The position numbers and the translations under genes were made by a program. Shown here one piece after another: positions 3,196 to 20,944 of a DNA stretch of 29,489 bases; position 1 is the stretch's first letter, and every line of letters begins with the position of its first letter. Under the pieces are notes generated by a model that was not told the origin of the DNA, ran no database searches, and saw nothing but the letters and a program-made list of their open reading frames with translations. Origin of the DNA: a virus; the IMG/VR virus record IMGVR_UViG_3300045988_149075, positions 1 to 29,489 of that record; one strand, written 5' to 3'.

Positions 3196-3294
3196 TGTTT
3201 TTCTCCTTTCGAGAGATTAGTTTAGTCGCTAGTTAGAGGGTTGTGCTGTCACGCCTTAATTCTTAGTTGCGTCGCTTCTTATCTAACTATCTTT

Positions 3295-3323
3295 AGTATA
3301 GCAAACTACTTAGCTAATTGCAA
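3295..3323 (-). promoter_or_regulatory. Sigma-70-type promoter TTGCAA-17-TATACT (minus strand)
   Basis: -35 at complement of 3318..3323, -10 at complement of 3295..3300, 17-nt spacer. Confidence 0.6.
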
Positions 3324-3341: not shown

Positions 3342-3701
3342 TTAGACTTTTTTAGCTCGTGCCGCGGCACTTGCAGCCGCAGCTTTTTTAGCACGCTCGC
3401 GGCGTTGCTCAGGTGTCATATTACTTGAAGATTTTCGACCACCAAACGAACGTTTAGCTCCAATAATAGCATTAATACAACCGATAATATCCGCTTTACG
3501 TTCTAATAAGGCGTCAGCTCGATTTGTCGCGCCGCTCCAATCGCCAAGATTACTTAGAGGCTTAGTGCTGGCTCCGTGTGCCTTCAGCCAGTCGTGCGTC
3601 CATTGTAGAGGGCTTTTATTTACTCTGCTATTTTCGCGAGTAAGTTCGTAAATAAACTCAGCCTCGCTTAATTCTGTGATATTTTGTGATTTCATTGACA
3701 T
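3342..3701 (-). CDS. Hypothetical protein with Lys/Ala-rich (histone H1-like) C-terminal tail
   Basis: 119 aa. C-terminus reads RRERAKKAAAASAAARAKKV. Confidence 0.55.
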   Translation of the reverse strand: MSMKSQNITELSEAEFIYELTRENSRVNKSPLQWTHDWLKAHGASTKPLSNLGDWSGATNRADALLERKADIIGCINAIIGAKRSFGGRKSSSNMTPEQRRERAKKAAAASAAARAKKV

Positions 3702-3813
3702 TTTGCCAATTTCCTTTCTAACCAGGCGGGTGGTAAGGGGTGTTTGATTTTTATTTTAGGATGTGCTAATATTTATGGGTAATCTAGTTATCGCCTTTTT
3801 CGAAGGGCGATTT

Positions 3814-3856
3814 CTATTTGGAGCTCAATTTCGAACTTCCAGAATACTATCTTCAT
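3814..3856 (-). CDS. 13-codon leader ORF (MKIVFWKFEIELQI) within a long 5' leader
   Basis: Strong RBS GAAAGGAGAA 7 nt upstream of the ATG. Lies in the ~210-nt leader of gene 3342..3701 and is followed by a hairpin at 3791..3810. Confidence 0.35.
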
Positions 3857-3918
3857 AGCTTTCTCCTTTCTAGCCGCCTGATTGTAAATGTTCTGGTGAT
3901 CCCCTTACCACTGTCTTT

Positions 3919-3947
3919 ATTATAGCTAACTACTTAGCTAAATGCAA
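3919..3947 (-). promoter_or_regulatory. Sigma-70-type promoter TTGCAT-17-TATAAT (minus strand)
   Basis: -35 at complement of 3942..3947, -10 at complement of 3919..3924, 17-nt spacer. Confidence 0.7.
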
Positions 3948-4158
3948 GGGTTTTTATGAAAAAAGTTAGAGATTTTTTGGTGAACCTGTGGAAAACTCAC
4001 TTCCCGTAAAATATATAGCGATATTCTTTATAGAGTCTAATGATAATACGTTTTAACACAGTTTAATTTTACCAAATAAAAAACTACCCTCGATCAAAAG
4101 TAGTAGTTAAAGTAGTAGTTTTTTATTCTGATAATCAAACGGCTTAGACCGTAATCTA

Positions 4159-4167
4159 ATTATATCA
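4159..4167 (-). promoter_or_regulatory. Extended -10 element TGATATAAT (minus strand), same class as the late promoter cassettes
   Basis: Complement of 4159..4167 reads TGATATAAT. Downstream, TACGGTCTAAGCCG partially resembles the conserved late leader motif. Confidence 0.4.
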
Positions 4168-4203
4168 TAAAGTTCTTTCAACTGTTCGGAATTTCCGAAC
4201 TGT

Positions 4204-4506
4204 TCAGTTGTTCGGTATTTCCGAATTACTCAATTGTTTTTTCTCCTTATATTTTTCTTTTAACAGCTCAACTATTGCTCCAATAACTGGCATCAATCGA
4301 CTAATAGCTGCGGCAATAACTGCAATAACTGCTGAGAATACCGTGTGTCCTGTTAGACTGTCCAAGCTTGCGATAAACTTGCTAAACTCAGGACTGCTGT
4401 ATAGCACTGTGAATGCTCCCATTGCTCCCAATAGTCCTTGCAAAAATGTCCTCATTGCTCGACCGTTTTTAGTTTCTGGACTAAATAATAATTTAATCTT
4501 TTCCAT
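4204..4506 (-). CDS. Putative holin (two hydrophobic helices)
   Basis: 100 aa with two TM-like segments (GLLGAMGAFTVL, VFSAVIAVIAAAISRLMPVIGAIV) and a charged C-terminus. Located in the lysis cassette. Confidence 0.6.
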   Translation of the reverse strand: MEKIKLLFSPETKNGRAMRTFLQGLLGAMGAFTVLYSSPEFSKFIASLDSLTGHTVFSAVIAVIAAAISRLMPVIGAIVELLKEKYKEKKQLSNSEIPNN

Positions 4507-4517
4507 ATCTCCTCCTA

Positions 4518-4847
4518 CTATTTTTCCTCAGTACCGTACACGCCGCGAGATTCACGCTCAACCTTACGATTAGCCAGCCACATAATAGCTTCCTCAATTT
4601 TCGTAAGAGCTAAACTGTTTTCACGACAAGGCAATCCTCGGTTGTAGTCTGCTAGTTTTGAGTAAGCTACAATAAGCAAGTCCTCAATAAATACACCGTT
4701 GCGCTCTGTGGTAGCTGTGCCGCCAGTTTGAAACTTGATTTTCAGTACCTCTTTGCCCGCGATATTAAGAGAAACTTCGTCGCCTGGCGTGCCGCGATTC
4801 AGTTCATTGTGCAATTCTTCTAGTGCATTATATTTGGTAGTTTTCAT
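4518..4847 (-). CDS. Hypothetical protein between endolysin and holin
   Basis: 109-aa ORF. Confidence 0.5.
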   Translation of the reverse strand: MKTTKYNALEELHNELNRGTPGDEVSLNIAGKEVLKIKFQTGGTATTERNGVFIEDLLIVAYSKLADYNRGLPCRENSLALTKIEEAIMWLANRKVERESRGVYGTEEK

Positions 4848-13796: not shown

Positions 13797-13825
13797 TTGC
13801 ATTTTGAGTATACTATTGTTACAAT
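13797..13825 (+). promoter_or_regulatory. Sigma-70-type promoter TTGCAT-17-TACAAT (plus strand) inside the palindrome TTGCATTT...AAATGCAA
   Basis: -35 at 13797..13802, -10 at 13820..13825. The inverted repeat TTGCATTT (13797..13804) / AAATGCAA (13826..13833) spans the promoter. Confidence 0.6.
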
Positions 13826-13856
13826 AAATGCAAGTTTTAAGATAAAAGAGGATATT

Positions 13857-14513
13857 ATGTCTACAGAGTTTCAAGAGAAAGCTTGTGAAAAAGCATTACG
13901 CGAATATCGCAAAAAATACTTAACAAAAAAGGAAAACCTCAATGCTGATGAATCGACAGCGCGATTGATGGTCAATAGTTTACTCAGCACTGTGCTTGGA
14001 TACACGTTAATTGACGAGATAAAGACTGAGCATATGATACGCGGTACCTACGTTGATTATGTCGTACAATTAAACAAGAAGATTCATTTTATTGTTGAAG
14101 CCAAAGCAACTTCTATCGATCTAAATGAACGACACTTAAAACAAGCGGTTGACTATGCCTCAAACGAAGGCGTTGACTGGGTCATTCTGACAAATGGTCG
14201 CTGTATTGAGTTGCACCGTGTCATTTTTGAGAAGCCGATTCGCTCGCAGCGTATCTTCGCATATGACCTGACAAATCTGTCAACAATCCGCACTGCTGCT
14301 AAGCACCTAGTCAACCTTACTAAGAAATCTGTATTAAAAGGCGATTTGGACAAGTACTGGAAGCGATTTGATGCATTGACCGAAGACAACATGAGAAAAG
14401 CTATCAAGTCACCTGATGTCGTTCGCAGTTTGCGCTTGTTTATTAAGAAAAAGTCAACAATCAACTTCACCGACGCTGAAATTGCTAAGGCTCTTGATAA
14501 ACTGATCAGCTAG
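13857..14513 (+). CDS. PD-(D/E)xK nuclease-fold protein resembling the N-terminal domain of type I restriction HsdR (HSDR_N-like)
   Basis: Start taken at the internal ATG at 13857, which has RBS AAAGAGGA; the track ORF begins with TTG at 13797. Motif VDYVVQLNKKIHFIVEAKA fits D...E-x-K. The stop codon overlaps the GT stop as CTAG. Confidence 0.6.
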   Translation: MSTEFQEKACEKALREYRKKYLTKKENLNADESTARLMVNSLLSTVLGYTLIDEIKTEHMIRGTYVDYVVQLNKKIHFIVEAKATSIDLNERHLKQAVDYASNEGVDWVILTNGRCIELHRVIFEKPIRSQRIFAYDLTNLSTIRTAAKHLVNLTKKSVLKGDLDKYWKRFDALTEDNMRKAIKSPDVVRSLRLFIKKKSTINFTDAEIAKALDKLIS

Positions 14514-19655: not shown

Positions 19656-20207
19656 TTATCCTTTCTTAAAATTCTTTAGTACACCATTGCGCGAATTATA
19701 ACCGCTCACCTCAAACACGCAGTCACACTTATGGTGACGCTTGAAATCATCGCTCGTCGGATTAACATATACTCCAGCCTTTTTCTGACACCACGCACAG
19801 TCCGGCTTGCCGACATTAGCGCGCCGTGTCAATGTCGGGTGTTTTTGCATAGACTTTGCATTCGTAAAAGCTTCGTGCTGCGCCGCCGCCAACACCACAT
19901 CACAATACTCTTTCAGCAGCATCGCGGCAGTCTGCCGATTCAGCGCGCTGTTGCGCACGATCTTCACTGCCAGCCGTTCCGCCTGATCAGCCATCTCAGC
20001 ACCATATCCGCTGCTCAGCATTGCCGCCGAGCCAAACACCTCGCTTGATAGTGAATACAGCTTGCTATGCAGCTCGCGTCCAGTCTGCTTCAGTACATCC
20101 GCTACCAACTCTATTTTTTTATCTGGCGAAATACCCTCATGTAAAATAGCCGCTATAGCCTTATTAATATCGCCAACAACATCCAGCGTTATTTCTGAAA
20201 AATCCAC
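19656..20207 (-). CDS. Hypothetical protein with C-terminal Cys/His cluster (PDCAWC...HHKCDC)
   Basis: 183 aa with a putative zinc-ribbon-like C-terminus. Possibly a minor head morphogenesis protein. Confidence 0.4.
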   Translation of the reverse strand: MDFSEITLDVVGDINKAIAAILHEGISPDKKIELVADVLKQTGRELHSKLYSLSSEVFGSAAMLSSGYGAEMADQAERLAVKIVRNSALNRQTAAMLLKEYCDVVLAAAQHEAFTNAKSMQKHPTLTRRANVGKPDCAWCQKKAGVYVNPTSDDFKRHHKCDCVFEVSGYNSRNGVLKNFKKG

Positions 20208-20425
20208 GCTCGTATCCCCTTGATGATATTATCTACGGTAGCTGTAACCTTTTTTGAAAACTCTGGTGTCGGTTCTAAAAACTCAGCGTCATCCATCGCC
20301 TTTAACTCGTCAATTTTCTTACTCGCCCAGGCAACCGACTTGTTGTCGGTGTCCTCCAACACCACACCTTTGCGCAGTGCCAGATCAGCCAAATAGTCAC
20401 GCTGTCCCTCCGTCATAATACCCAT
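20189..20425 (-). CDS. Hypothetical small protein
   Basis: 78-aa ORF overlapping the next ORF by 19 nt. Confidence 0.45.
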   Translation of the reverse strand: MGIMTEGQRDYLADLALRKGVVLEDTDNKSVAWASKKIDELKAMDDAEFLEPTPEFSKKVTATVDNIIKGIRAWIFQK

Positions 20426-20585
20426 ATTATACCATCATCTACCCCTTAAATCAATCACCCACGCACCCGCCAGAAAAACTCGTTTTTTTTCTCGCGTGAA
20501 AATAGCCCCACTCACCGCGCTTGGCGCCTCTGGGACCGGGATATACACCCTCCCCGCCACCATAAAATTATACTATGTCAATATT

Positions 20586-20620: not shown

Positions 20621-20944
20621 ATGGCACAGCGCAGGAAGTATGCAACAGCTAAAGATCCACGACGACAGTTCCCAAAACTACGAGAGGATTTGCGCAAAAG
20701 AGTTTATGCTATGCAAGATACTTGTGGTATCTGCGGACGTGAGGTCGACAAGACTTTGCCAGCAGGTAGCCCGATGTCACCAGAGCTAGACGAGATCATA
20801 CCAGTTTCTCGTGGCGGTTCGCCTTATGACATAGATAACCTACAGCTTACTCACAGGATATGCAACAGGCGTAAGGGGGCAAAGATGCCGGGGGATGATT
20901 TGCCAGACGATATCAACCCTACGCCAAATTCAAGAGCTTGGTAG
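20621..20944 (+). CDS. HNH endonuclease
   Basis: 107 aa. Contains CGICG...DEIIPVSRGG...DNLQLTHRICNRRKG, matching HNH motifs including the Cys pairs. Confidence 0.8.
   Translation: MAQRRKYATAKDPRRQFPKLREDLRKRVYAMQDTCGICGREVDKTLPAGSPMSPELDEIIPVSRGGSPYDIDNLQLTHRICNRRKGAKMPGDDLPDDINPTPNSRAW

What the first reader, a model, noticed from the sequence alone, without database searches (positions are those of the whole stretch)
3702..3947. About 210-nt structured leader with a 13-codon uORF and long-range pairing that could mask the region upstream of the main RBS
The transcript from the TTGCAT-17-TATAAT promoter (TSS near 3913) starts with GUGGUAAGGGG...CAGGCGG. These are exact complements of CCGCCUG (3874..3880, RNA sense) and CCCCUUACCAC, which sits ~20 nt upstream of the RBS of gene 3342..3701. 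Between them lie a mini-ORF MKIVFWKFEIELQI with a very strong RBS (complement of 3814..3856) and a hairpin at 3791..3810. The layout of a strong-RBS leader peptide, a hairpin and long-range pairing next to the main RBS resembles translational attenuation or leader-peptide sensing. At the DNA level it could also be an inverted-repeat-flanked mobile segment.
Basis: seen in the sequence. Interest (0 to 1): 0.55.

Follow-up and report, generated by a model that had tools for sequence, protein, structure and literature searches.

The report
Phage leader with micro-ORF and antisense RNA
The flagged stretch is a conserved control region at the start of a prophage operon: its RNA closes on itself through two long-range helices around a 22-codon mini-gene, and the opposite strand appears to encode a tiny antisense RNA, so it is a layered RNA control cassette and not the drug-style attenuator first proposed.

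Summary
The complementarities are real. An exact 11-nt pair (3911..3901 with 3740..3730) is reached by 1 of 1000 shuffles, and a 9-nt pair abuts it (3882..3874 with 3729..3721). Three details were wrong. The uORF has 22 codons (3856..3788), not 13. The CCGCCUG coordinates given are those of its partner. The hairpin is a better structure on the other strand.

Twenty-five distinct leaders from oral metagenomes and viromes fall into two types, 64% identical to each other. They keep the 10-11 bp helix through three compensatory double changes. They keep the second helix, and 24 of 25 keep a 21-22 codon ORF behind a 9-10 nt Shine-Dalgarno.

New here: all 25 carry TTGATT-17-TGnTAnnnT on the opposite strand, followed by a hairpin about twice as stable on that strand and a U-tract. 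The hairpin differs between the two types. This predicts a ~42-nt antisense RNA (3778..3820, + strand) over the uORF 3' end.

The main RBS stays open in every modelled fold, so erm-like attenuation is not supported. Sibling leaders from the same operator-bearing promoter family also start with a stem at +2.

Best reading: a 5'-end-protecting long-range helix, a micro-ORF and cis-antisense control. This is a new variant of known kinds. No expression data exist.

The parts
3919..3947 (-). Sense promoter: -35 TTGCAT (3947..3942), 17-nt spacer, -10 TATAAT (3924..3919). The transcription start is inferred near 3912.
   Evidence: A second copy of the same 34-nt promoter lies at 3323..3290 (0 expected by chance). 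It is conserved in all relatives. The start site is inferred, not measured.
3923..3940 (.). 18-bp palindrome (consensus TAGCTAAC-TA-GTTAGCTA) filling the promoter spacer. Probable operator for a dimeric repressor.
   Evidence: three copies in the window (3923-3940, 3299-3316 and a degenerate one at 2379-2396) against 0.01 expected. It is perfect in some relatives. Its function is inferred.
3702..3912 (-). 211-nt leader RNA of the operon.
   Evidence: Fold z = -3.4; the type II homologue gives z = -4.4. 25 distinct homologous leaders were found. In L014, L016 and L017 the leader is 92-93% identical where the downstream CDS is 72-74% identical.
3901..3911 (-). Arm A (GUGGUAAGGGG), starting at +2 of the transcript.
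   Evidence: Covariation with A' is shown.
3730..3740 (-). Arm A' (CCCCUUACCAC), partner of A. It is C-rich and resembles an anti-Shine-Dalgarno sequence.
   Evidence: Type II has GUAGCGAGGG / CCCUCGCUAC, with three positions changed on both sides and all still paired. In one search, 97% of cells are paired against 32-57% when partners are slid, and 0 of 500 shuffles reach the covariation score.
3874..3882 (-). Arm B (AUCAGGCGG), ending 2 nt before the uORF Shine-Dalgarno.
   Evidence: (I1).
3721..3729 (-). Arm B' (CCGCCUGGU), contiguous with A' (0-2 nt spacer in relatives). A'+B' give 20 bp in all, and their partners occur in permuted order, which makes a pseudoknot or two alternative nested folds.
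   Evidence: spacers; pairs: U-A or U.G in type I, one A.C mismatch in type II. The nested alternatives are near-isoenergetic.
3863..3871 (-). SD1, AGAAAGGAG, with 9 nt complementary to the 16S rRNA 3' end (AGAAAGGAGG in type II).
   Evidence: Read from the sequence. The complementarity rests on the established anti-SD sequence CCUCCUUUCU. Predicted accessibility is 0.32-0.35 when B-B' is enforced and 0.50-0.60 when A-A' is enforced.
3788..3856 (-). Upstream ORF: 22 codons plus stop, MKIVFWKFEIELQIEIALRKRR.
   Evidence: The ORF is open, at 21-22 codons, in 22 of the 23 leaders; the two leaders added later (L051, L052) also keep it (sequence), giving 24 of 25. L010 has a 1-nt deletion. Variable sites in type I fall 6:1:7 on codon positions 1:2:3, and codon 4 is seen as GTA, GTG, GTC and GTT. 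The peptide has no transmembrane stretch and has beta-type amphipathicity.
3744..3772 (+). Antisense promoter: -35 TTGATT (3744-3749), 17-nt spacer, extended -10 TGC-TAATAT (TG at 3764-3765, -10 at 3767-3772).
   Evidence: The pattern TTGATT-N14-TGnTAnnnT occurs twice in the window against 0.03 expected. It is present with identical spacing in all 25 leaders, with -10 alleles TAATAT, TATAGT, TAAGAT and TAAGCT. The promoter scan flags it in L012 at 9 of 12 matches plus TG.
3790..3820 (+). Intrinsic terminator of the + strand: AUCGCCUUU-UUCG-AAGGGCGAU (3790-3811) followed by UUCUAUUUG.
   Evidence: -14.2 kcal/mol on the + strand against -8.7 on the gene strand. Type II has a different 14-bp hairpin plus U-tract at the same place (z = -4.7). 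L049 swaps U-A and U.G at two neighbouring pairs, which keeps the + strand pairing.
3778..3820 (+). Predicted ~42-nt antisense RNA. It is complementary to uORF codons ~13-22, the stop codon and ~10 nt of the hypervariable spacer.
   Evidence: Inferred from the promoter and terminator above. No transcript data exist.
3712..3719 (-). SD2 (AGAAAGGA) of the 119-codon gene.
   Evidence: It is mostly unpaired in every modelled conformer.
3694..3710 (-). Small hairpin AUUGGCA-AAA-UGUCAAU that holds the UG of the main start codon.
   Evidence: One compensatory double change in L046, one G.U to A-U change, two A-U to G.U changes and one break.
3342..3701 (-). Downstream gene, 119 aa. The protein is all-alpha with a basic C-terminal helix, and its function is unknown.
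   Evidence: No Pfam or PHROG hit. Only 23 homologue clusters, all unnamed or 'hypothetical'. AlphaFold pLDDT 80 with no fold match.

Best explanation
The interval is the control region of a prophage operon, built from three superposed layers.

(1) A sigma-A-type promoter with an 18-bp palindromic operator in its spacer starts a transcript near 3912.

(2) The first 11 transcribed nucleotides after +1 pair with 11 nt lying 160 nt downstream (A-A'). The 9 nt that directly follow A' pair back to the 9 nt just 5' of the first Shine-Dalgarno (B-B'). Together these give up to 20 bp of long-range duplex with the strands in permuted order, that is, a pseudoknot or two near-isoenergetic nested folds. 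The duplex buries the 5' end, encloses a 22-codon ORF that has an exceptionally strong Shine-Dalgarno, and leaves both ribosome-binding sites single-stranded. I infer that this layer mainly protects the mRNA from 5'-end-dependent decay, as 5'-terminal stems and strong ribosome binding do in Bacillota. The micro-ORF would be a translated first cistron or ribosome-loading site.

(3) A convergent extended -10 promoter inside the leader, with its own terminator, makes a ~42-nt antisense RNA over the 3' third of the micro-ORF. I infer that its pairing creates a ~40-bp perfect duplex. That duplex would block completion of micro-ORF translation and/or be cut by RNase III. A cut would sever the protected 5' end from the 119-codon cistron and lower expression of the operon.

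Shown by sequence comparison: the helices, the ORF, and the antisense promoter and terminator signals.
Inferred: the transcription starts, translation of the ORF, the stabilising role, and the effect of the antisense RNA.
For: Helix A-A':
- It is exact over 11 bp, reached by 1 of 1000 shuffles.
- It is kept in 25 distinct leaders, with 3 positions changed on both sides between type I and type II.

Helix B-B':
- 9 bp, directly abutting A', kept in both types.

Sibling leaders:
- Leaders driven by the same operator-promoter family in these phages also begin at +2 with a stem. One is GUUAAG-AAAUA-CUUAAC. Another is an 8-bp helix GUUAGA.../...UCUAAC closing ~45 nt. A 5'-terminal stem is therefore a shared design.

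Fit with known 5' stabilisers:
- SD1 matches 9-10 nt of the anti-SD sequence.

The uORF:
- It is kept open in 24 of 25 leaders, with third-position-biased variation.

The antisense unit:
- The -35 hexamer, the 17-nt spacing, the TG and the T1/A2/T6 positions of the -10 are invariant in all 25 leaders, while the spacer and the inner -10 positions vary.
- The pattern is rare in the window: 2 found against 0.03 expected.
- The hairpin is about twice as stable on the + strand, is followed there by a U-tract, and is a different hairpin in type II.
- The conserved A-rich block of the leader coincides with this promoter.
- The 'alternating' middle of the peptide coincides with the complement of the terminator U-tract.

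The main RBS:
- SD2 accessibility is the same in all folds.

Precedent:
- Antisense RNAs that overlap 3' ends and trigger RNase III cleavage are documented on Bacillus prophages (PMC4152353).
Against: - There are no transcript, ribosome or half-life data. Both start sites are predictions.
- The host is unresolved, so the RNase J1/Y/III set is assumed from a probable Bacillota host.
- Single-site changes in A-A' split 2 wobble-compatible to 2 disruptive. They do not separate an RNA helix from a DNA-level repeat. The case for RNA rests on the three compensatory positions, the position at +2 and the sibling leaders.
- All compensatory changes come from one type I / type II split, so they may trace to a single evolutionary lineage.
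- The type II antisense -10 hexamer (TAAGCT) matches only 3 of 6, and the scan does not flag it.
- A 42-nt antisense RNA is shorter than the characterised ones (60-220 nt in PMC4152353, Table 2).
- The pseudoknot was not modelled energetically. Only its two nested halves were.
- The second leader's 5' helix is not significant by energy alone (z = -1.4).
- One relative (L010) has a frameshifted uORF.
Confidence: 0.45

Rival explanations
1. A plasmid-rep-like translational switch. The B-B' long-range pairing next to the main RBS would be an activating pseudoknot for the 119-codon gene. Its formation would depend on translation of the leader ORF and would be antagonised by the antisense RNA, as in IncI-alpha/IncB repY-repZ and, without the pseudoknot, R1 tap-repA.
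For: The parts list matches: a leader ORF, an antisense RNA from a convergent promoter, and a GGCG/CGCC-containing long-range pairing that ends 2-4 nt before SD2 in type I. That system is described in PMC8053102 (Discussion, citing Asano and Mizobuchi 1998 and Praszkier and Pittard 2002). In relatives that lack the leader, a local hairpin occupies the same place just before the SD.
Against: The uORF stops 85 nt before the main AUG, so there is no overlap or close coupling. The antisense RNA covers the uORF 3' end, not its RBS or arm B. The distance from B' to SD2 grows to ~16 nt in type II. SD2 is predicted open with or without B-B'. The downstream protein shows no relation to replication initiators.
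Confidence: 0.15
2. A type I toxin-antitoxin-like module. The micro-ORF would encode a harmful peptide held in check by an mRNA fold with 5'-to-downstream pairing and by a cis-antisense RNA antitoxin that overlaps its 3' end.
For: The anatomy fits: a small ORF, long-range pairing that encloses it, an antisense RNA with its own promoter and terminator over the ORF 3' end, a prophage location and a charged C-terminus (compare bsrG/SR4 and txpA/RatA in PMC4152353).
Against: The peptide has no hydrophobic or transmembrane segment. Its longest run without a charged residue is 4, and GRAVY is about 0. Its middle part is shaped by the terminator on the other strand. The S-to-P change in L049 keeps the + strand pairing. 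The transcript continues into a conserved downstream gene. SD1 is only partly masked.
Confidence: 0.1
3. Transcriptional interference only. The convergent promoter pair, with starts ~134 bp apart, would tune transcription of the operon by polymerase collision or occlusion. The short antisense product and the RNA pairings would have no role of their own.
For: Face-to-face promoters with a terminator that stops the antisense transcript before the sense promoter.
Against: This does not explain the compensatory changes in A-A', the abutting B-B', or the 5'-terminal stems of the sibling leaders.
Confidence: 0.1
4. A DNA-level feature. The 11-bp inverted repeats would be the ends of a small mobile insertion. 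Alternatively they would be two binding sites for one protein, at +2..+12 of the sense promoter and about -38..-48 of the antisense promoter.
For: The same 11-mer lies in the same orientation relative to each of the two promoters. Both copies change together in type II. Single-site changes do not favour wobble pairs, splitting 2:2.
Against: There is no target-site duplication and no empty site. Arm B/B' is in permuted order, which has no sense for a protein site. Sibling leaders have unrelated arm sequences that always start at +2 but have partners at 5, ~45 or 160 nt, which fits RNA stems and not fixed-geometry DNA sites. The fold z-scores are -3.4 and -4.4.
Confidence: 0.05
5. erm/cat-type translational attenuation. 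A ribosome stalled on the leader peptide would remodel the leader and expose the main RBS.
For: A short leader ORF with a strong RBS and a basic C-terminus (RKRR, or KK in type II), and a structured leader.
Against: The main SD and AUG are not sequestered in any conformer. The uORF shares no nucleotides with A, A', B or B'. The only hairpin inside it is a terminator for the other strand. No alternative pairing links the uORF to SD2.
Confidence: 0.03

Closest known systems
5' stabilisers of Bacillota mRNAs (ermC and aprE leaders, cryIIIA STAB-SD, hbs 5' UTR)
   Same: A stem that starts within 1 nt of the 5' end, plus a very strong Shine-Dalgarno early in the leader. These are the two determinants named for leader-conferred stability (PMC3997798; PMC5737220).
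   Different: Here the 5' stem is closed by a partner 160 nt away. It is extended by a second, permuted helix and encloses a whole conserved ORF and an antisense transcription unit. The stabilising effect is untested.
Leader-peptide / antisense RNA / pseudoknot control of plasmid rep genes (ColIb-P9 repY-repZ-Inc RNA, pMU720 repB-repA-RNAI, R1 tap-repA-CopA)
   Same: A leader ORF, a convergent antisense RNA within the leader, and long-range pairing involving GGCG/CGCC next to the main RBS (PMC8053102, Discussion).
   Different: There is no overlap or coupling distance between the leader ORF and the main gene (85 nt). The antisense RNA targets the ORF 3' end, not its RBS or the pseudoknot loop. 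The context is a phage and the downstream protein is unknown.
Type I toxin-antitoxin modules with 3'-overlapping antitoxin RNA on Bacillus prophages (txpA/RatA, bsrG/SR4)
   Same: A small ORF on a structured mRNA, a cis-antisense RNA over its 3' end, a prophage location and an expected RNase III substrate (PMC4152353).
   Different: The peptide is not hydrophobic. The antisense RNA is ~42 nt, against 180-220 nt. The mRNA continues into a second conserved gene.
Phage antisense regulators from convergent promoters (lambda OOP against cII; P22 sar against ant). Recalled from my own knowledge, not checked in the paper library.
   Same: A short terminator-ended antisense RNA made from a promoter inside a repressor-controlled phage operon. 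In P22 it lies downstream of a small first gene (arc).
   Different: OOP and sar are 68-77 nt and overlap the regulated gene's 3' end or RBS. Here the overlap is with a 22-codon ORF, and the large gene is ~60 nt away from the duplex.

Membership tests
erm/cat-type translational attenuator | The main SD and/or start codon is sequestered in a stem in the uninduced fold. | tested here: not met
   Mean unpaired probability is 0.67-0.80 for SD2 and 0.36-0.45 for AUG2. It does not change when either long-range helix is enforced, in three leaders.
erm/cat-type translational attenuator | The leader ORF overlaps one segment of mutually exclusive stems, so that a stalled ribosome re-pairs the leader. 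| tested here: not met
   The uORF (3856..3788) shares no nucleotide with A, A', B or B'. Its stop lies about 44-50 nt before A'.
Type I toxin-antitoxin | A small hydrophobic (transmembrane) toxic peptide. | tested here: not met
   The longest run without D/E/K/R is 4 residues and GRAVY is about 0. Toxicity itself was not testable.
Type I toxin-antitoxin | A cis-encoded antisense RNA with its own promoter that overlaps the toxin mRNA. | tested here: met
   An extended -10 promoter and an intrinsic terminator on the opposite strand in all 25 leaders. These are computational signals only.
IncI-alpha/IncB-type rep control (leader peptide + antisense RNA + activating pseudoknot) | The leader ORF ends at or within the main gene's initiation region (translational coupling). 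| tested here: not met
   There are 85 nt between the uORF stop (3788) and the main AUG (3701).
IncI-alpha/IncB-type rep control (leader peptide + antisense RNA + activating pseudoknot) | A long-range pseudoknot adjacent to the main RBS that is required for translation. | tested here: inconclusive
   B-B' exists and is conserved. It lies 2-4 nt from SD2 in type I and ~16 nt in type II. Whether it is required is not testable here.
Bacillota 5' mRNA stabiliser | A stem at or within a few nt of the 5' end. | tested here: met
   Arm A starts at +2 of the predicted transcript. The same holds for two sibling leader types. The start site is predicted, not mapped.
Bacillota 5' mRNA stabiliser | A strong ribosome-binding site in the leader, and increased half-life of the downstream RNA. 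| not testable with these tools
   SD1 has 9-10 nt of complementarity to the anti-SD. Half-life cannot be computed.
Any curated RNA family (Rfam 15) | A match to a covariance model. | tested here: not met
   No hit at gathering thresholds in the whole window. Only chance-level hits (E > 3) in 3600-4250. No tRNA or tmRNA.

The most novel reading that the evidence does not exclude
The leader would form a '5'-end-capping' permuted pseudoknot. The first transcribed nucleotides would be stacked as a nick inside a 20-bp quasi-continuous helix made of two long-range pairings, whose partners occur in swapped order. The pseudoknot would work together with an unusually short (~42 nt) embedded antisense RNA and a beta-amphipathic 22-residue micro-protein as a previously undescribed phage switch. 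That switch would set the expression of an orphan gene located between the lysis genes (next to an Acb2/Tad1-like gene) and the integrase.
Probability: 0.15. Interest if true: 0.75.

Novelty: new variant of a known kind. Interest (0 to 1): 0.55.

Why it matters
If the anatomy holds, about 210 nt carry four overlapping signals: an operator-controlled promoter, a long-range 5'-closing duplex, a micro-ORF, and a convergent promoter-terminator pair. One hairpin serves as coding sequence on one strand and as terminator on the other.

It would add a phage example from uncultivated oral bacteria to the small set of leader-ORF / antisense / long-range-pairing controls, which are known mainly from enterobacterial plasmids and Bacillus prophage toxin modules.

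It also shows how apparent 'peptide conservation' in a micro-ORF can come from a terminator U-tract on the other strand.

The two natural leader types, with their compensatory changes, give ready-made mutants for testing how 5'-end burial, micro-ORF translation and antisense pairing combine.

The regulated 119-residue protein has no known relative, so the biological pay-off is still open.

Tried and rejected
- Near and distant DNA searches of the leader against 50,697 phage records: no match.
- Rfam at gathering and at permissive thresholds: nothing credible.
- tRNA/tmRNA scan: none.
- Two scans of species-representative genomes, one by DNA pattern and one by protein profile: no relative, so the host could not be named.
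- The host-flank DUF421 protein of prophage locus L052: nearest named relatives are only ~81-82% identical and come from several oral Bacillota genera. Inconclusive.
- Pfam, PHROGs, AlphaFold plus Foldseek against PDB and BFVD for the 119-aa protein: no assignment.
- A promoter-pattern scan for further leader types: it returned sibling leaders but no third uORF-leader type.
- The 13-nt near-copy of the antisense RNA tail at 4151-4163 as a possible trans target: rejected, because it does not co-vary with the spacer alleles in relatives.
- G.U wobble changes as proof of RNA-level selection: rejected as evidence, because the split is 2 compatible to 2 disruptive.
- The alternating hydrophobic/polar pattern of the peptide as proof of a functional peptide: downgraded, because that stretch is the complement of the + strand terminator U-tract.
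- A local 5' hairpin alternative (A with nt 12-17): it is predicted in most leaders, but the register is ambiguous in type I, so it was left as a possibility.
- MAFFT mis-registers the type II arm A and L003 arm A'. The full 10-pair count was therefore done with my own script, and only the in-register pairs were counted with the tool.
Full report
CONTEXT

The window is most of a siphovirus-like temperate phage genome, with nearly all genes on the minus strand. In order it carries terminase, portal, capsid, tail genes, an Amidase_5/ZoocinA_TRD endolysin and an Acb2/Tad1-like ORF. Then come several small orphan genes and a tyrosine integrase. A close relative sits at the end of a 701-kb scaffold, with the integrase next to host genes, so these are prophages. 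Relatives come from human oral metagenomes and viromes. No match was found in reference phage records or in species-representative genomes. The host is probably a member of the Bacillota, but it could not be named.

THE OBSERVATION

On the minus strand, TTGCAT-17-TATAAT lies at 3947..3919. The same 34-nt promoter recurs at 3323..3290. Its spacer is an 18-bp palindrome, so it is probably an operator. A transcript starting near 3912 begins with GUGGUAAGGGG (3911..3901). That sequence is the exact complement of CCCCUUACCAC at 3740..3730. Only 1 of 1000 dinucleotide shuffles of the leader reaches 11 bp. Directly after A', CCGCCUGGU (3729..3721) complements AUCAGGCGG (3882..3874).

The order of the arms is A, B, A', B'. 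The two helices therefore cross. They form either a pseudoknot of up to 20 bp, bridged by an 18-nt linker, or two alternative nested folds. The nested folds are within 1-3 kcal/mol of each other in three leaders.

COMPARATIVE EVIDENCE FOR THE RNA STRUCTURE

Protein-anchored and DNA-pattern searches gave 25 distinct leaders. Twenty-two are window-like (type I). Three (L006, L045, L049) are a type II that is only 64% identical, although it sits in flanks that are 88-100% identical. Conversely, three loci whose CDS is 72-74% identical keep a 92-93% identical type I leader. The leader therefore behaves as a conserved, exchangeable module.

In type II, arm A is GUAGCGAGGG and arm A' is CCCUCGCUAC. 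Three of ten pairs changed on both sides, and all remain paired. On the in-register columns of the alignment, 97% of cells pair, against 32-57% when partners are slid, and 0 of 500 shuffles reach the covariation score. B-B' is kept, with U-A or U.G in type I and one A.C mismatch in type II. Single-site changes in A-A' split 2 wobble-compatible to 2 disruptive, so they do not discriminate between an RNA helix and a DNA repeat.

The RNA reading rests on three things:
- the compensatory positions;
- the start of arm A at +2;
- sibling leaders from the same promoter family, which also start at +2 with a stem whose partner lies 5 or ~45 nt away and whose sequence is unrelated.

THE uORF

It is open, at 21-22 codons, in 24 of 25 leaders. 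L010 carries a 1-nt deletion. It sits behind AGAAAGGAG(G), which has 9-10 nt complementary to the anti-Shine-Dalgarno sequence. In type I the variable sites fall 6:1:7 on codon positions 1:2:3, and valine codon 4 is seen in all four synonymous forms. This is modest but real support for coding. The peptide has no transmembrane stretch and is not alpha-amphipathic.

THE ANTISENSE UNIT (NEW)

On the + strand it has 9 bp with a UUCG loop (-14.2 kcal/mol) and is followed by UUCUAUUUGG. Upstream of it on the + strand lies TTGATT-17-TGCTAATAT (3744..3772). The pattern TTGATT-N14-TGnTAnnnT occurs twice in the 29.5-kb window, against 0.03 expected.

All 25 leaders keep four features: the -35 hexamer, the 17-nt spacing, the TG, and T1/A2/T6 of the -10. 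The spacer and the inner -10 positions vary. The scan tool flags this promoter in L012. Type II has a different, 14-bp hairpin at the same place. It too is stable only on that strand (z = -4.7) and is followed by a U-tract. L049 exchanges U-A and U.G at two neighbouring pairs, which keeps the + strand pairing while changing a uORF codon from Ser to Pro.

This predicts a ~42-nt antisense RNA at 3778..3820. Three features of the sense leader then find an explanation:
- The conserved A-rich block upstream of A' is the antisense promoter.
- The hypervariable spacer after the uORF stop is the 5' tail of the antisense RNA.
- The Ile/Lys/Glu alternation in the middle of the peptide is the complement of the terminator U-tract, so it is weak evidence for a functional peptide.

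THE ATTENUATION IDEA

Enforcing either long-range helix leaves the main SD 0.67-0.80 unpaired and the main AUG 0.36-0.45 unpaired. Only the uORF SD shifts, from 0.32-0.35 to 0.50-0.60. The uORF overlaps none of the arms. The distance from B' to the main SD is 2-4 nt in type I and ~16 nt in type II. A small hairpin over the main start codon has one compensatory change, but it is independent of the long-range helices. erm-type attenuation is therefore not supported.

The mobile-element alternative also fails. There are no target duplications and no empty sites, and homologues of the gene that lack this leader sit behind other ORFs, with a local hairpin just before the SD.

MECHANISM

I commit to a layered reading.
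- The 5'-terminal long-range duplex buries the 5' end and presents two strong SDs. This fits the documented determinants of leader-conferred mRNA stability in Bacillus-type bacteria (PMC3997798; PMC5737220).
- The micro-ORF is a translated first cistron or ribosome-loading site.
- The convergent antisense RNA pairs over the uORF 3' end. The perfect duplex would block translation and/or be cut by RNase III, as in the 3'-overlapping antisense pairs of Bacillus prophages (PMC4152353). That would uncouple the protected 5' end from the 119-codon gene.

The signals are shown by comparison; the activities are inferred.

Rivals:
- An IncI/IncB-like activating pseudoknot with a leader peptide and antisense RNA (PMC8053102). 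It shares the parts list but fails on coupling distance and on the antisense target.
- A type I toxin-antitoxin reading. The peptide is not hydrophobic.
- Pure transcriptional interference.
- DNA-level sites.

WHAT IS REGULATED

The 119-residue protein is all-alpha with a basic C-terminal helix (pLDDT 80). It has no Pfam, PHROG or fold match, and only 23 unnamed homologue clusters.

VERDICT

The finding is a real, conserved and more intricate element than described. Its individual parts all have precedents. Their combination does not match any curated RNA family in Rfam. That combination is long-range pairing in permuted order at the very 5' end, a micro-ORF whose 3' end doubles as the terminator of a very short antisense RNA, and a phage context. 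I rate it a new variant of known kinds, of moderate interest. Transcript mapping and mutational tests are still needed.

Noticed in passing
window 4518..4847 (-): A 109-aa ORF just after the endolysin matches the Pfam Acb2/Tad1 hairpin domain (PF24729, E = 5e-7, above the cut-off) and phrog_2428. It is a candidate anti-CBASS/anti-Thoeris nucleotide sponge lying next to the leader's operon.
   Followed up: partly
window 3923-3940, 3299-3316, 2379-2396: An 18-bp palindrome, TAGCTAAC-TA-GTTAGCTA, fills the spacer of at least two near-identical promoters, and a degenerate third copy exists. In relatives the same operator-promoter drives several small-gene units upstream of the integrase. The repressor was not identified.
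   Followed up: partly
window 4177-4228: Two tandem 26-bp repeats, each containing the palindrome TTCGGAA(A/T)TTCCGAA, overlap the last codons of ORF 4204..4506 (D2/I5/I9). They could be a protein-binding site or an RNA hairpin pair.
   Followed up: no
window 4070-4127: A 13-bp perfect inverted repeat AATAAAAAACTAC/GTAGTTTTTTATT encloses two tandem 12-nt repeats AAAGTAGTAGTT. It looks like a bidirectional terminator closing the unit upstream of the leader's promoter (I6/D5). It is conserved in L051-L053.
   Followed up: no
window 3196..3289 (-), and the sibling leaders seen in L010, L014, L092 and L144 (coordinates not recorded): Other leaders from the same promoter family also begin at +2 with a stem. 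One is an 8-bp helix UAGUUAGA/UCUAACUA closing ~45 nt. Another is the hairpin GUUAAG-AAAUA-CUUAAC. Both are followed by a shared UAGCGACUAAAC motif before the SD.
   Followed up: partly
L055-L058 about 3950-4000; L054 about 3485-3530: Homologues of the 119-aa gene that lack the uORF leader sit behind a 98-aa or 78-aa ORF. They carry a local 5-6 bp hairpin (loop UGGCUUAUAA or UGGCAUUAUAG) immediately before the same AGAAAGG SD, where arm B' sits in the window.
   Followed up: partly
L010 (same contig as L030), uORF: A single-base deletion (GTTCGAAA to GTTGAAA) shortens the uORF to 13 codons in one virome contig. It could be an assembly error or a natural null allele.
   Followed up: no
window 13797..14513 (+): The only sizeable + strand gene among the tail genes encodes a 238-aa protein with a type I restriction enzyme R-protein N-terminal (HSDR_N_2) domain. 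It may be a moron or a defence-related insert.
   Followed up: partly
window 20426..20454 (-) and 20621..20944 (+): The only other TTGATT-17-TGnTAnnnT promoter-like site in the window lies directly upstream of ORF 20189..20425. An HNH endonuclease gene lies nearby on the opposite strand.
   Followed up: no
L056 about 3900-3970: A run of poly-A and poly-C low-complexity sequence replaces part of the upstream ORF in one JGI contig. It is probably an assembly artefact.
   Followed up: no
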